Source: Escherichia coli (GTDB lineage: Bacteria > Pseudomonadota > Gammaproteobacteria > Enterobacterales > Enterobacteriaceae). From it: a stretch of DNA of 64,000 nt. The position numbers and the translations under genes are program-made. The notes beneath the pieces are model-generated. The model did not search any database. It was not told the DNA's origin and worked only from the letters and a program-made list of their open reading frames with translations. Position 1 is the first letter of the stretch. Each line of letters begins with the position of its first letter. Positions 1 to 43,231 of the stretch are shown here, piece by piece. Location: assembly GCF_009931435.1 (NCBI RefSeq), contig NZ_CP043414.1. One strand, written 5' to 3'.

Positions 1-53
1 CGGTGAGGCGCAATGTTGCGGGGGCTTAATCCCTGGTGGCATTGGTTGCTGGA

Positions 54-121
54 GAGAGAAAACCCCCGCACGTTGCAGATATTCACCTGACAACATCACG
101 GGGGCTAATCTTGAACCTAGA
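54..121 (-). ncRNA. rdl: Candidate Rdl antisense sRNA, unit 1 (position approximate)
   Basis: Nested hairpin (cccccg...caggt/acctg...cggggg) preceded on the + strand by gagagagaaaa, which reads as hairpin plus U-run on the - strand, about 50 nt upstream of the ldr ATG. Rdl is known to be encoded antisense to the ldr leader. Confidence 0.3.
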
Positions 122-170
122 CCACTCAAGAATAGCCGCGAAACGTTGTCATTACAACACAGGCGGCTAT

Positions 171-278
171 ATGACGCTCGCAGAACTGGGCATGGCCTTC
201 TGGCATGATTTAGCGGCTCCGGTCATTGCTGGCATTCTTGCCAGCATGATCGTGAACTGGCTGAATAAGCGGAAGTAA
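171..278 (+). CDS. ldr: Ldr type I toxin peptide, copy 1 (35 aa, MTLAELGMAFWHDLAAPVIAGILASMIVNWLNKRK)
   Basis: 35-codon ORF closely matching the K-12 LdrD peptide as recalled; followed by a stem-loop terminator. Confidence 0.85.
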   Translation: MTLAELGMAFWHDLAAPVIAGILASMIVNWLNKRK

Positions 279-328
279 CGTGTCAGACGGGCGTCAGGCT
301 GCCGTAATGGCAATTTGCGCCCGGACCA

Positions 329-362
329 GGCCGCAGAGATAAAACTCTGCGGCCTTTTTCGT
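329..362 (+). terminator. Intrinsic terminator after ldr copy 1
   Basis: GGCCGCAG...CTGCGGCC stem-loop followed by TTTTT. Confidence 0.6.
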
Positions 363-536
363 AAGAAAAATGCAACGGTTGCAAGCGGATAATATTCTGC
401 GGAATGCGCAGCACAGAGTGAAGAAGTGATGGATTCTGGAACAGAAAAACAGTCGTAGAATCAGCAGCAAGCCGGAAGGGTTCCGGTGAGGCGCAATGTT
501 GCGGGGGCTTTATCCCTGGTGGCATTGGTTGCTGGA

Positions 537-604
537 GAGAGAAAACCCCCGCACGTTGCAGGTATGCACCTGACAACATCACGGGGGCCATTCTTGCATC
601 CAAA
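537..604 (-). ncRNA. rdl: Candidate Rdl antisense sRNA, unit 2 (approximate)
   Basis: Same hairpin plus U-run structure at the equivalent position in unit 2. Confidence 0.3.
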
Positions 605-653
605 CAATACAAGAATAGCCGCGAAACGTTGTCATTACAACAGAGGCGGCTAT

Positions 654-761
654 ATGACGCTCGCAGAACTGGGCATGGCCTTCTGGCATGATTTAGCGGC
701 TCCGGTCATTGCTGGCATTCTTGCCAGTCTGATCGTGAACTGGCTGAACAAGCGGAAGTAA
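654..761 (+). CDS. ldr: Ldr type I toxin peptide, copy 2 (35 aa, ...ASLIVNWLNKRK)
   Basis: Same 35-codon ORF in repeat unit 2; M26L relative to copy 1. Confidence 0.85.
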   Translation: MTLAELGMAFWHDLAAPVIAGILASLIVNWLNKRK

Positions 762-811
762 CGTGTCAGACGGGCGTCAGGCTGCCGTAATGGCAATTTG
801 CGCCCGGACCA

Positions 812-845
812 GGCCGCAGGGATAAAACTCTGCGGCCTTTTTCGT
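812..845 (+). terminator. Intrinsic terminator after ldr copy 2
   Basis: Same GC stem-loop plus T-run. Confidence 0.6.
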
Positions 846-1020
846 AAGAAAAATGCAACGGTTGCAAGCGGATAATATTCTGCGGAATGCGCAGCACAGA
901 GTGAAGAAGTGATGGATTTCGACGAACAAAAATGGCCGTAGAATCAGCGGCAAGCCGGAAGGGTTCCGGTGAGGCGCAATGTTGCGGGGGGCTTTATCCC
1001 TGGTGGCATTGGTTGCTGGA

Positions 1021-1088
1021 GAGAGAAAACCCCCGCACGTTGCAGGTATGCACCTGACAACACCACGGGGGCCATTCTTGCATCTAGA
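1021..1088 (-). ncRNA. rdl: Candidate Rdl antisense sRNA, unit 3 (approximate)
   Basis: Same structure at the equivalent position in unit 3. Confidence 0.3.
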
Positions 1089-1137
1089 CCATTCAAGAAT
1101 AGCCGCGAAACGTTGTCATTACAACACTGGCGGCTAT

Positions 1138-1245
1138 ATGACGCTCGCAGAGCTGGGCATGGCCTTCTGGCACGATTTAGCGGCTCCGGTCATTGCTGGC
1201 ATTCTTGCCAGTCTGATCGTGAACTGGCTGAACAAGCGGAAGTAA
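1138..1245 (+). CDS. ldr: Ldr type I toxin peptide, copy 3
   Basis: Same ORF in repeat unit 3; peptide identical to copy 2. Confidence 0.85.
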   Translation: MTLAELGMAFWHDLAAPVIAGILASLIVNWLNKRK

Positions 1246-1295
1246 CGTGTCGGACGAGCGTCAGGCTGCCGTAATGGCAATTTGCGCCCGGACCA

Positions 1296-1328
1296 GGCCG
1301 CAGGGATAAAACTCTGCGGCCTTTTTCG
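1296..1328 (+). terminator. Intrinsic terminator after ldr copy 3
   Basis: Same GC stem-loop plus T-run. Confidence 0.6.
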
Positions 1329-1504
1329 TAAGAAAAATGCAACGGTTGCAAGCGGATAATATTCTGCGGAATGCGCAGCACAGAGTGAAGAAGTGATGGA
1401 TTTCGACGAACAAAAATGGCCGTAGAATCAGCGGCAAGCCGGAAGGGTTCCGGTGAGGCGCAATGTTGCGGGGGGCTTTATCCCTGGTGGCATTGGTTGC
1501 TGGA

Positions 1505-1572
1505 GAGAGAAAACCCCCGCACGTTGCAGGTATGCACCTGACAACACCACGGGGGCCATTCTTGCATCTAGA
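1505..1572 (-). ncRNA. rdl: Candidate Rdl antisense sRNA, unit 4 (approximate)
   Basis: Same structure at the equivalent position in unit 4. Confidence 0.3.
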
Positions 1573-1621
1573 CCATTCAAGAATAGCCGCGAAACGTTGT
1601 CATTACAACACTGGCGGCTAT

Positions 1622-1729
1622 ATGACGCTCGCAGAGCTGGGCATGGCCTTCTGGCACGATTTAGCGGCTCCGGTCATTGCTGGCATTCTTGCCAGTCTGA
1701 TCGTGAACTGGCTGAACAAGCGGAAGTAA
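1622..1729 (+). CDS. ldr: Ldr type I toxin peptide, copy 4
   Basis: Same ORF in repeat unit 4; unit appears identical to unit 3. Confidence 0.85.
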   Translation: MTLAELGMAFWHDLAAPVIAGILASLIVNWLNKRK

Positions 1730-1779
1730 CGTGTCGGACGAGCGTCAGGCTGCCGTAATGGCAATTTGCGCCCGGACCA

Positions 1780-1812
1780 GGCCGCAGGGATAAAACTCTG
1801 CGGCCTTTTTCG
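1780..1812 (+). terminator. Intrinsic terminator after ldr copy 4
   Basis: Same GC stem-loop plus T-run. Confidence 0.6.
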
Positions 1813-1987
1813 TAAGAAAAATGCAACGGTTGCAAGCGGATAATATTCTGCGGAATGTGCAGCACAGAGTGAAGAAGTGATGGATTCCGGAACAGAAAAA
1901 CAGTCGTAGAATCAGCGGCAAGCCGGAAGGGTTCCGGTGAGGCGCAATGTTGCGGGGGCTTAATCCCTGGTGGCATTGGTTGCTGGA

Positions 1988-2055
1988 GAGAGAAAACCCC
2001 CGCACGTTGCAGGTATGCACCTGACAACATCACGGGGGCTAATCTTGAACCCAAA
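1988..2055 (-). ncRNA. rdl: Candidate Rdl antisense sRNA, unit 5 (approximate)
   Basis: Same structure at the equivalent position in unit 5. Confidence 0.3.
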
Positions 2056-2104
2056 CAACTCAAGAATAGCCGCGAAACGTTGTCATTACAACAGAGGCGG
2101 CTAT

Positions 2105-2212
2105 ATGACGCTCGCAGAACTGGGCATGGCCTTCTGGCATGATTTAGCGGCTCCGGTCATTGCTGGCATTCTTGCCAGTCTGATCGTGAACTCGCTGAAT
2201 AAGCGGAAGTAA
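2105..2212 (+). CDS. ldr: Ldr type I toxin peptide, copy 5, variant (...ASLIVNSLNKRK, Trp30 to Ser)
   Basis: Same ORF frame in repeat unit 5; tgg to tcg change read directly in the sequence. Confidence 0.8.
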   Translation: MTLAELGMAFWHDLAAPVIAGILASLIVNSLNKRK

Positions 2213-2262
2213 CGTGTCATGCGGGCGTCAGGCTGCCGTAATGGCAATTTGCGCCCGGATCA

Positions 2263-2295
2263 GGCCGCAGGGGTGAAACTCTGCGGCCTTTTTCG
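2263..2295 (+). terminator. Intrinsic terminator after ldr copy 5, convergent with the bcsG 3' end
   Basis: Same GC stem-loop plus T-run, ending 4 nt before the bcsG stop. Confidence 0.6.
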
Positions 2296-2298
2296 TTC

Positions 2299-37138: not shown

Positions 37139-37154
37139 AGTTTTACTCAGACAT

Positions 37155-37260
37155 AAAAAAAACCCGGCATAGGGGACCGGGAAGAGGATAGTCTGCCGTC
37201 TCCAGACTAATAAACCGTTATAACACTCCCTGTTGGCACGGGAAACTTTGTGCTCTCAGT
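37155..37260 (-). ncRNA. gadY: GadY small RNA, antisense to the gadX 3' UTR
   Basis: Reverse complement begins ACTGAGAGCACAAAGTTTCCCGTGCCAACAGGG... and ends in CCCGGTCCCCTATGCCGGGTTTTTTTT, matching GadY as recalled. Confidence 0.8.
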
Positions 37261-37506
37261 AAGTTAAATATAACTTTTACTGGAAATAAGATCAGCCATT
37301 TTTTTATAAACATAAGCTATACGCTGTGTGAAAATATATTGGTGTTGCATTTACTTATTATCAATTAACTGTTATGCAAAACTACTTTGTGGATAAATTT
37401 TGGTCCTACCAAATATGGCAGTTTTTGCACTAAGAAACAGTCTGGCGTCATTTCATTAGTATACTGAAATTGAAATAATCGCAGTAATGAAATATAAGGG
37501 ATAGTC

Positions 37507-42893: not shown

Positions 42894-43231
42894 TTTAGTC
42901 CCTGAAAATTCTTGAGATATAACGGTTCTTTAAATTGCGCGCGAGGAGAGGTATGAGGGATTTACAGACCAGCGGCATAGTGGGGTTGTCAGCCAGTAAG
43001 ATGGGATGCAAGCACAGTGATCGACATGGTGAGGTCAACGACAAAAAAAATGTTGCCGTTCTGCCAACAGTTCCTGCCAGCATTCGGGCAACGAAGGGTT
43101 CTACTGGTGGATACACATACCAGGGGAATAAAGTCGTTTTCGCCTCTCCTTTAGTCATCACCGGGGATAATGAAATCAGCATCTGCATCCCTCTTCATGC
43201 CTGCCATCATTTTCAGTTAATTATGTCCTGA

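What the first reader, a model, noticed from the sequence alone, without database searches (positions are those of the whole stretch)
537..604. Candidate Rdl antisense terminator structure inside each ldr leader
Each unit has a nested hairpin (cccccg-cacgttg-caggt-atgc-acctg-...-cggggg) preceded on the + strand by gagagagaaaa. On the - strand this is a hairpin followed by a U-run, placing a putative Rdl 3' end about 115 nt upstream of the ldr ATG. This fits the known antisense arrangement but the ends are my estimate.
Basis: partly seen in the sequence, partly recalled or inferred. Interest (0 to 1): 0.3.

Follow-up and report, generated by a model that had tools for sequence, protein, structure and literature searches.

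The report
Rdl antitoxin RNA genes, five copies
The hairpin is the already-known small antisense RNA Rdl, which keeps the 35-amino-acid Ldr toxin of E. coli switched off; it is present once in each of five tandem repeats, so the finding is correct but ordinary.

Summary
Confirmed, and already known. Window 1-2296 is a tandem array of five ~484-bp LDR units between yhjV and bcsG. K-12 has a single unit (ldrD/rdlD) at this locus.

The interval 537-604 is not just a terminator. It is essentially the whole Rdl gene of unit 2, on the minus strand, from the 5' end at 605 to the 3' end at 540/539.
- Rfam rdlD (RF01813) matches full length in all five units at 82-90 bits, against a gathering score of 50.
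- The RNA has a 16-nt single-stranded 5' tail, one long imperfect hairpin (544-589) and a UUUUCU tail. The hairpin is both the body of the antitoxin and its intrinsic terminator.
- In 30 Ldr loci from six genera, Rdl sits at almost the same distance from the ldr ATG (within 3 nt).
- G·U pairs (104 cells, against 1 A·C) show the hairpin is kept on the Rdl strand, not the mRNA strand.

Expression in this strain, and how Rdl blocks Ldr synthesis, remain unshown. I infer that the 5' tail nucleates on an accessible loop of the ldr leader.

Side observations: variable sites cluster in the Rdl 5' tail, and there are sub-threshold covariance-model cross-hits between ldr/rdl and hok/sok.

The parts
540..605 (-). 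Rdl antitoxin sRNA gene of LDR unit 2 (5' end G at 605, 3' end 540 or 539); this is the finding
   Evidence: Rfam RF01813 matches 1-66/66 at 82.9 bits against a gathering score of 50. It aligns with the annotated K-12 rdlD. K-12 Term-seq 3' ends 3700201/2 were carried over by alignment.
544..589 (-). Long imperfect hairpin of Rdl (nt 17-62): a GC-rich base GCCCCCG/CGGGGGU, a middle stem UGUUG/CAACG, and an apical stem CAGGU/ACCUG with loop GCAU. It is both the body of the RNA and the terminator stem.
   Evidence: RNA fold gives dG -32.3 kcal/mol, z = -4.4. The Rfam consensus structure agrees. Over 37 distinct Rdl sequences, 97% of cells are paired, against 43-56% with slid partners. There are 104 G·U cells against 1 A·C cell, so the pairing is kept on this strand.
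540..543 (-). U-tract (UUUU, then CU) after the hairpin; site of the Rdl 3' end
   Evidence: Sequence. The Term-seq 3' end in K-12 falls at the identical sequence GGGGGUUUUCU|C.
590..605 (-). Single-stranded 5' tail of Rdl (nt 1-16). It is the most variable part of the unit and the proposed nucleation segment.
   Evidence: Unpaired in the fold and in the Rfam structure. Five of 16 positions vary among the five units, against 43 of 485 overall.
612..617 (-). Putative -10 hexamer of the Rdl promoter (TATTCT), 6 nt upstream of the 5' end
   Evidence: Conserved as TATyCT in all 40 aligned loci from six genera. The match to consensus is only 4/6, so the promoter scan missed it. Function is inferred.
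635..640 (-). Putative -35 hexamer of the Rdl promoter (TTGTAA), with a 17-nt spacer
   Evidence: Conserved as TTGyAA (TTGTCA in two loci) with fixed spacing. Function is inferred.
586..620 (+). Stem-loop of the ldr mRNA leader. Its 13-nt loop (597-609) holds the complement of Rdl nt 1-9.
   Evidence: Predicted in the full-mRNA fold, with unpaired probability 0.89-0.90 for 597-605. Over 28 distinct leader sequences 85% of cells are paired, against 25-48% with slid partners. Three pairs show compensatory changes (9 cells), and 0 of 500 shuffles reach the observed score.
654..761 (+). ldr toxin gene of unit 2 (35 aa plus stop)
   Evidence: Translation. Pfam PF13940 Ldr_toxin matches at 90.7 bits against a cut-off of 27. 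The protein is 94% identical to K-12 LdrD.
811..838 (+). Intrinsic terminator of the ldr mRNA of unit 2
   Evidence: Terminator scan: 11-bp stem with 8 GC pairs, followed by TTTTTCG.
57..122 (-). Rdl gene of unit 1
   Evidence: RF01813 at 85.5 bits, full length.
1024..1089 (-). Rdl gene of unit 3
   Evidence: RF01813 at 81.8 bits, full length.
1508..1573 (-). Rdl gene of unit 4 (identical to the unit 3 copy)
   Evidence: RF01813 at 81.8 bits. Identity to unit 3 shown.
1991..2056 (-). Rdl gene of unit 5
   Evidence: RF01813 at 90.4 bits, full length.
1..2296 (.). Tandem array of five LDR units (ldr ATGs at 171, 654, 1138, 1622, 2105); the window starts inside unit 1
   Evidence: Tandem-repeat finder: period 484, 4.7 copies. 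ATG positions. The closest RefSeq relative has exactly five Ldr genes between yhjV and bcsG.

Best explanation
Interval 537-604 is the Rdl gene of LDR unit 2. Rdl is the cis-encoded antisense RNA antitoxin of an Ldr/Rdl type I toxin-antitoxin module, and four more copies sit in the neighbouring units.

Proposed sequence of events:
1. Rdl is transcribed on the minus strand from a weak but conserved promoter (TTGTAA, 17 nt, TATTCT). Transcription starts at G605.
2. It stops at 540/539, at an intrinsic terminator made of the long hairpin 544-589 plus UUUUCU. The product is a 66-67-nt RNA with a 16-nt free 5' tail and one hairpin.
3. Rdl is perfectly complementary to nt 540-605 of its own unit's ldr mRNA leader. 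That stretch ends 49 nt upstream of the ldr ATG, clear of the ribosome-binding site.
4. I infer that pairing begins between the first ~9 nt of the Rdl tail and an exposed loop (597-605) of a leader stem-loop.
5. Pairing then spreads to a 66-bp duplex, which RNase III cuts and which prevents Ldr synthesis.

Shown: the identity, the position and the K-12 ends.
Taken from K-12 literature: duplex formation, RNase III cleavage and repression of toxicity.
Inferred: the promoter, the nucleation site and expression in this strain.
Unknown: how a duplex 49 nt upstream of the ATG blocks translation.
For: Identity and position
- Rfam rdlD gives full-length hits in all five units at 82-90 bits, against a gathering score of 50.
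- The units align with annotated K-12 rdlA-D.
- The locus is yhjV-[ldr]-bcsG, the K-12 LDR-D locus.
- The adjacent 35-aa ORFs match Pfam Ldr_toxin.

3' end
- Term-seq 'primary' RdlD ends lie at 3700201/3700202 in K-12, within an identical sequence context (PMC7815308 supplement 1).

Structure
- Folds give z = -3.9 to -5.0.
- 97% of cells are paired over 37 distinct sequences from six genera.
- There are 104 G·U cells against 1 A·C cell, so the helix is maintained on the Rdl strand.

Fixed geometry
- In 30 Ldr loci, Rdl sits at 584-588..649-654 relative to the ldr ATG at 701.

Promoter
- The hexamers and their spacing are conserved in every locus.

Nucleation
- The target loop is 0.89-0.90 unpaired in full-mRNA folds.
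- Its stem shows compensatory changes.

Duplex and function in K-12
- A p19-captured RNase III dsRNA peak lies inside the rdlD/ldrD overlap (PMC7373196).
- RdlD co-expression blocks LdrD toxicity and translation, according to reviews citing Kawano 2002 (PMC4147584; PMC8309996).
Against: - There are no expression data for this strain. The ends are carried over from K-12 by homology.
- Covariation in the Rdl hairpin is minimal: one compensatory pair in one metagenome-assembled genome. Structural support therefore rests on conservation, G·U asymmetry and energy.
- The promoter matches consensus at only 8 of 12 positions and is not called by the scan.
- For K-12 rdlA/B/C, Term-seq lists only 'internal' 3' ends in the apical loop. 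Not every Rdl copy therefore has a mapped terminator end.
- The step from duplex to translational block is unexplained. The proposed leader ORF (ldrX) is not conserved in start, frame or end over 34 leaders.
Confidence: 0.9

Rival explanations
1. The hairpin matters mainly as a structure of the sense ldr mRNA leader, for example as a cis element controlling mRNA stability or translation. On this view the minus-strand terminator reading is secondary.
For: The plus strand of 537-604 also folds well (dG -26.2 kcal/mol, z = -3.7). The upper part (555-577) persists in folds of the whole mRNA. The whole ldr mRNA is unusually structured (z = -7.7).
Against: The same 17 pairs are 97% paired on the Rdl strand but only 81% on the sense strand. 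There are 104 G·U cells on the Rdl strand against 1 A·C cell. In full-mRNA folds the lower stem is replaced by pairing of 546-551 with 502-507. The Rfam model and the K-12 annotation both place a gene on the minus strand.
Confidence: 0.1
2. Some or all of the extra copies (units 1-4 relative to the single K-12 copy) are silent relics. The sequence is Rdl-like but it is no longer transcribed or no longer acts as an antitoxin.
For: No expression data exist for this strain. RefSeq annotations of related strains list no rdl genes. Unit 5's Ldr carries W30S at the family-signature tryptophan, so at least one module may be drifting.
Against: All five copies score 82-90 bits over the full model. All keep both promoter hexamers with the 17-nt spacer. 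Each faces an intact 35-aa ldr ORF with its own terminator. An intact toxin gene without its antitoxin would be counter-selected (inference).
Confidence: 0.1
3. The element is only a transcription terminator for minus-strand read-through, for example from bcsG or from neighbouring units. It is not a gene of its own.
For: bcsEFG is transcribed on the minus strand towards the array. The hairpin plus U-tract would stop any minus-strand transcript.
Against: A conserved promoter-like pair of hexamers sits at a fixed distance upstream in every locus of six genera. K-12 annotates a discrete 64-nt RNA starting at the homologous G. The 16 nt upstream of the hairpin form part of the Rfam model.
Confidence: 0.03

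Closest known systems
RdlD of E. coli K-12 (rdlD, b4454; Rfam RF01813), antitoxin of the ldrD/rdlD type I toxin-antitoxin pair
   Same: Same chromosomal locus (yhjV-bcsG). Same strand arrangement. Same distances to the ldr ATG (5' end 49 nt, 3' end 112-115 nt upstream). Same hairpin and the same UUUUCU end. Unit 3/4 Rdl differs from K-12 RdlD at 5 positions within the 64 nt compared, and unit 2 at 8.
   Different: There are five tandem copies here instead of one. The copies differ from one another at 0-8 positions, mostly in the 5' tail. The unit length is 483-484 bp. No experimental data exist for these copies.
Sok RNA of hok/sok (for example SokC of K-12; the Rfam RF01794 model covers the hok leader)
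   Same: Both are cis-antisense RNAs to the leader rather than the ribosome-binding site of a small membrane-toxin mRNA. Both have a free 5' tail, one hairpin and a 3' end of ...GGGG(C/G)UUUUCU. In both, the antisense 5' end lies 49 nt upstream of the toxin AUG. The hok-leader model aligns collinearly with the ldr leader at 27-47 bits, and the Rdl model hits SokC at its annotated start at 20 bits.
   Different: The toxins belong to different protein families (Hok versus Ldr/Fst). All cross-hits fall below the gathering score (59). SokB is not hit (4.8 bits). A sequence-only profile finds nothing. Reviews call the two systems not homologous (PMC3874152). The Rdl hairpin is about 10 nt longer.
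Sib RNAs of the ibs/sib loci (tandemly repeated type I modules of E. coli)
   Same: Both are tandem copies of a toxin-antisense pair in one intergenic region. The literature shows that Sib copies discriminate their cognate mRNAs through short variable regions (PMC2943612 abstract). The clustering of variable sites in the Rdl 5' tail would fit the same logic.
   Different: From my own knowledge, not checked here: Sib RNAs are about twice as long and cover the whole ibs ORF. Copy-specific recognition has not been tested for Rdl.

Membership tests
Rfam RF01813 rdlD antitoxin RNA | Covariance-model score at or above the curated gathering score (50 bits) over the full model | tested here: met
   82.9 bits at 540-605 on the minus strand, model positions 1-66/66. 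The other four units score 81.8-90.4 bits.
Ldr/Rdl type I toxin-antitoxin module | The sRNA is encoded antisense to the 5' untranslated leader of an ldr gene and does not cover the ribosome-binding site or start codon | tested here: met
   Rdl covers 540-605. The GAGG Shine-Dalgarno-like motif lies at 642-645 and the ATG at 654. The same geometry holds in 30 loci. This matches the literature description (PMC4147584).
Ldr/Rdl type I toxin-antitoxin module | Partner gene encodes a 35-aa Ldr-family peptide | tested here: met
   Pfam PF13940 Ldr_toxin matches at 90.7 and 83.4 bits against a cut-off of 27. The proteins are 94-97% identical to K-12 LdrD.
Ldr/Rdl type I toxin-antitoxin module | A discrete ~60-67-nt minus-strand transcript with defined 5' and 3' ends | not testable with these tools
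   Only K-12 data are available: the annotation gives 64 nt and Term-seq gives ends at 3700201/2. Carrying these over to this strain is by homology.
Ldr/Rdl type I toxin-antitoxin module | The RNA represses toxin synthesis or toxicity | not testable with these tools
   Reported for K-12 RdlD/LdrD in reviews citing Kawano 2002. The original paper is not held in the library.
Intrinsic (Rho-independent) terminator | GC-rich stem-loop immediately followed by a U-tract on the transcribed strand | tested here: met
   The stem base is GCCCCCG/CGGGGGU and is followed by UUUUCU. The scan reports a minus-strand site in each unit. The K-12 3' end maps 6-7 nt after the last G-C pair. The U-tract is short, at 4 U.
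hok/sok regulatory RNA (Rfam RF01794) | Score at or above the gathering score (59 bits) | tested here: not met
   The window's ldr leaders score 26.7-30.2 bits. The best score elsewhere is 47.1 bits. True hok leaders score 110-118 bits. This is a resemblance, not membership.

The most novel reading that the evidence does not exclude
The Rdl RNA and the whole ldr leader may share ancestry with Sok and the hok leader. On this reading a single RNA control cassette became attached to two unrelated toxin families. The cassette would comprise the leader folds, the antisense promoter inside a target stem-loop, an antisense start 49 nt upstream of the toxin AUG, and the GGGGnUUUUCU terminator. The evidence is reciprocal but sub-threshold covariance-model hits and identical spacing. 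A sequence-only search fails, so convergence is not excluded.
Probability: 0.25. Interest if true: 0.4.

Novelty: already known. Interest (0 to 1): 0.1.

Why it matters
For the scan, this settles the finding as a correct recognition of a textbook type I antitoxin RNA, so little follows from it.

Two practical points remain.
- RefSeq annotations of strains with this five-unit array list only the Ldr toxin genes and omit the five rdl genes. Rfam-based annotation would add them.
- The way RdlD blocks LdrD translation is still described as unknown in a 2021 review. The features mapped here give concrete mutational targets: the accessible target loop, the variable 5' tail, the alternative pairing of 546-551 with 502-507, and the absence of a conserved leader ORF.

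Tried and rejected
- **Promoter scan.** The sigma-70 consensus scan found no promoter in 1-2400. The Rdl promoter was instead inferred from conservation.
- **Covariation in the Rdl hairpin.** Only one compensatory pair appears among 37 distinct sequences, and the shuffle controls are unimpressive. I relied on G·U strand asymmetry instead.
- **ldrX leader ORF.** I looked for a leader ORF starting inside the Rdl target and spanning the ldr ATG. None is conserved in start, frame and end over 34 leaders. A TTG about 60 nt upstream is common, but it is in frame with ldr in some types and ends at the AUGA overlap in others. The result is inconclusive.
- **Alternative pairing 502-507 with 546-551.** I tested it by looking for length or base covariation across genera. 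The changes are compatible with the pairing but not consistent, so it remains a prediction only.
- **Sequence-only homology to hok.** An nhmmer profile of ldr mRNAs against the hokC and hokB loci found nothing significant.
- **Literature that could not be read.** Kawano 2002 (Mol Microbiol), Kawano 2012 (RNA Biol), Fozo 2008 (MMBR) and Thomason 2015 (dRNA-seq) are not held. The mapped 5' end therefore rests on the K-12 annotation.
- **Source strain.** It is not in the E. coli collection at 100% identity. The best match over 5 kb is 99.0%.

Full report
**What is at the coordinates**

- gagagagaaaa occupies 535-545.
- The nested inverted repeat is cccccg 546-551, cacgttg 552-558, caggt 559-563, atgc 564-567, acctg 568-572 and cggggg 582-587.

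Read on the minus strand, 537-604 folds into a single long hairpin followed by UUUUCU. The fold has dG -32.7 kcal/mol and z = -4.7 against dinucleotide shuffles, and none of 200 shuffles folds as well. The four sister copies give z = -3.9 to -5.0.

The surrounding 1-2296 is a tandem array with a period of 484, 4.7 copies and 95% matches. A pattern scan reports five plus-strand and five minus-strand terminator-like sites, against 2.5 +/- 1.7 expected. The minus-strand calls pick a short sub-hairpin, because the scan cannot handle the long bulged stem.

**What it is**

Rfam's rdlD model (RF01813) matches the minus strand at 57-122, 540-605, 1024-1089, 1508-1573 and 1991-2056. Each hit covers the full model (1-66/66) and scores 81.8-90.4 bits, against a gathering score of 50.

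Each hit lies upstream of a 35-codon plus-strand ORF. The ATGs are at 171, 654, 1138, 1622 and 2105. These ORFs match Pfam Ldr_toxin at 83-91 bits against a cut-off of 27. They are 94-97% identical to K-12 LdrD.

The flanking genes are yhjV and bcsG. This is the K-12 LDR-D locus, where K-12 has one ldrD/rdlD pair. The closest RefSeq relative (99.0% identity over 5 kb) has exactly five Ldr genes there, and the window begins inside the first unit.

The K-12 annotation of rdlD (64 nt, 3700136-3700199) aligns to window 605->542. The interval 537-604 is therefore not a terminator appended to something longer. It is essentially the complete Rdl gene of unit 2. The hairpin (544-589, Rdl nt 17-62) is both the body of the RNA and its terminator stem. 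It is preceded by a 16-nt free 5' tail (590-605) and followed by the U-tract (540-543).

**Are the ends right?**

Published Term-seq of K-12 (Adams et al. 2021, PMC7815308, supplementary file 1) lists 'primary' RdlD 3' ends at 3700201 and 3700202 on the plus strand. I checked how the sequence column is laid out using sgrS: the 3' end is the 51st of 61 letters. The RdlD ends therefore read ...GGGGGUUUUCU and ...UUUUCUC, giving a 66-67-nt RNA.

The sequence from the hairpin base through the tail is identical in the window. The homologous ends are 540 and 539, which is 114-115 nt upstream of ATG 654. The 5' end (G605, 49 nt upstream of the ATG) rests on the K-12 annotation and the Rfam model, because I could not obtain the primary mapping papers.

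[quoted passage not shown] Its coordinates are in U00096.2. By my conversion (+1977, approximate) they correspond to RdlD nt 8-41. A minus-strand transcript that pairs with the ldr leader is thus documented in K-12, though not in this strain.

**Comparative evidence**

A search of one genome per species with an Ldr alignment returned 30 loci. They come from Escherichia, Citrobacter, the Klebsiella oxytoca group, Kluyvera, Pseudocitrobacter and Salmonella arizonae/diarizonae. One further hit, a 503-bp contig labelled Bacillus, looks like contamination.

With the ldr ATG at 701 in each locus, the rdlD model hits 584-588..649-654 on the minus strand in 28 of the 30 loci. The exceptions are the truncated L007 and the partial L034. 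The antisense gene therefore keeps almost the same distance to the toxin start, within 3 nt, across genera.

In 37 distinct Rdl sequences, the 17 pairs I tested are 97.1% paired, against 43-56% when partners are slid. True covariation is nearly absent: one C-G to U-A change, in a Klebsiella metagenome-assembled genome. This is because the stem is almost invariant.

A more telling test is strand asymmetry. There are 104 G·U cells on the Rdl strand but only one A·C cell. The same helix read on the mRNA strand is only 80.8% paired. In unit 1 the apical stem has a G·U pair in Rdl that is an A·C mismatch in the mRNA. The hairpin is therefore maintained for the minus-strand RNA.

**Promoter**

Upstream of G605 on the minus strand lie TTGTAA (640..635), a 17-nt spacer, TATTCT (617..612) and then 6 nt. 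This is conserved as TTGyAA (TTGTCA in two loci), 17 nt, TATyCT in all aligned loci. It matches consensus at only 8 of 12 positions, which is why the scan found nothing. Its function is inferred.

**The sense strand**

The ldr mRNA probably starts near 468, 7 nt after a TAGAAT at 456-461. This is my inference. It ends at the terminator 811-838.

Folding 466-470..846 gives dG -175 kcal/mol, and folding 478-846 gives z = -7.7. In these folds:
- CCCCCG 546-551 pairs with 502-507 upstream, not with 582-587.
- A 5'-3' long-range helix closes the molecule.
- The start region is partly paired with the 3' UTR.

These are predictions. Changes across genera are compatible with them but do not prove them.

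A stem-loop at 586-620 exposes a 13-nt loop whose first nine bases (597-605) are the complement of Rdl nt 1-9. Their predicted unpaired probability is 0.89-0.90. The stem has three pairs with compensatory changes (9 cells), is 85% paired against 25-48% when slid, and no shuffle of 500 reaches the observed score.

**How it most likely works**

Shown or documented in K-12:
- Rdl is a discrete short antisense RNA.
- It forms a duplex with the ldr leader, which RNase III cleaves.
- It counteracts LdrD toxicity and translation.

Inferred here:
- Pairing nucleates between the free Rdl 5' tail and the exposed leader loop, then zips through both hairpin arms.

Unknown:
- How a duplex ending 49 nt upstream of the ATG stops translation. 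A 2021 review calls the mechanism unknown.

The published hypothesis is a coupled leader ORF, ldrX. It finds no clear comparative support. No ORF starting in the Rdl target and spanning the ldr ATG is conserved in start, frame and end over 34 leaders. A TTG about 60 nt upstream is frequent, but it is fused in frame to ldr in some types and ends at the AUGA overlap in others.

**Comparison with known systems**

Membership in rdlD and in the Ldr/Rdl system is met on every feature testable from sequence. Expression and antitoxin activity cannot be tested here.

The nearest other system is hok/sok. The Rfam model named 'sok' (RF01794) is in fact the hok mRNA leader, on the sense strand, ending at the hok AUG. 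The cross-comparisons give the following results.
- RF01794 aligns full length and collinearly with the ldr leader. It scores 27-30 bits in the window (E = 2e-4 to 2e-3) and up to 47 bits in Klebsiella (E about 1e-7 in a 28-kb search). All of these are below the gathering score of 59.
- Reciprocally, a covariance model I built from the 37 Rdl sequences hits K-12 SokC exactly at its annotated start. The score is 20.1 bits, with E = 0.004 in 66 kb. It does not hit SokB.
- The SokC 5' end is 49 nt upstream of the hokC AUG, the same distance as for Rdl.
- Both RNAs end in GGGG(C/G)UUUUCU.
- A sequence-only profile finds nothing.
- Reviews call the systems non-homologous but strikingly similar in organisation.

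I record this as a resemblance whose origin, descent or convergence, is open.

**Other observations**

The five Rdl copies differ at 0-8 positions. Units 3 and 4 are identical. Differences fall at nt 3, 5, 7, 9, 15 and 17 of the tail, nt 27 of the internal loop, and nt 40 and 44 of the apex.

Among the units, 9 of the 21 positions at 589-609 vary, against 43 of 485 overall. This could reflect copy-specific recognition, as shown for Sib/Ibs, or simply weak constraint in a loop.

**Verdict**

The finding is a correct identification of a known gene: the RdlD-type antitoxin RNA, present in five tandem copies. Novelty: already known. Interest: low.

Noticed in passing
window 503-656 (+), and the same stretch in the other four units; L017 1020-1180; L036 553-607: There are sub-threshold but reciprocal covariance-model cross-hits between ldr/rdl and hok/sok. 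Rfam RF01794, which is really the hok leader on the sense strand, aligns full length with every ldr leader at 27-47 bits against a gathering score of 59. An Rdl model hits SokC at its annotated start (20 bits, E = 0.004). Both antisense RNAs start 49 nt upstream of their toxin's AUG and end in UUUUCU. A sequence-only search fails.
   Followed up: partly
window 589-609, compared across the five units: Variable sites among the five units cluster here: 9 of 21 positions, against 43 of 485 over the whole unit. This stretch is the Rdl 5' tail and the predicted target loop of the ldr leader. A second cluster lies at 919-936, upstream of the next unit's ldr promoter.
   Followed up: partly
window 2105-2212 (+): The Ldr peptide of unit 5 reads ...IVNSLNKRK. 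It has serine in place of the tryptophan that the literature calls the Ldr/Fst family signature, so this toxin copy may be weakened.
   Followed up: no
window 1-2296; L004 and L035: There are five tandem LDR units at the locus where K-12 has one. E. coli genomes carry 1-12 matching places, with a median of 4. RefSeq annotation of related strains lists the five Ldr genes but no rdl RNA genes.
   Followed up: partly
A 5'-3' long-range helix also closes the mRNA. This layout resembles the fold-back design of hok mRNA. It is a prediction only.
   Followed up: partly
K-12 rdlA/B/C (L003); PMC7815308 supplementary file 1: Term-seq lists only 'internal' 3' ends for rdlA, rdlB and rdlC, at ...CAGGU in the apical loop (1269360, 1269895, 1270430). 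No end is listed at the U-tract. The cause could be loop cleavage or reads that cannot be mapped uniquely.
   Followed up: no
window 37150-37263 (-), 43043-43114 (-), 52786-52817 (+), 61495-61577 (-) and 61728-61812 (-): Other Rfam hits above the gathering score are GadY, ES205, the shuA/chuA 5' UTR thermoregulator, and two AgrB antisense RNAs of the dinQ region. The chuA element indicates a non-K-12 lineage.
   Followed up: no
L008 (NZ_JABWSY010000055.1, 503-bp contig labelled Bacillus sp.): This contig carries an Ldr gene and an Rdl identical to unit 5 of the window. It has very low coverage, so it is most likely Escherichia contamination of a Bacillus assembly.
   Followed up: no
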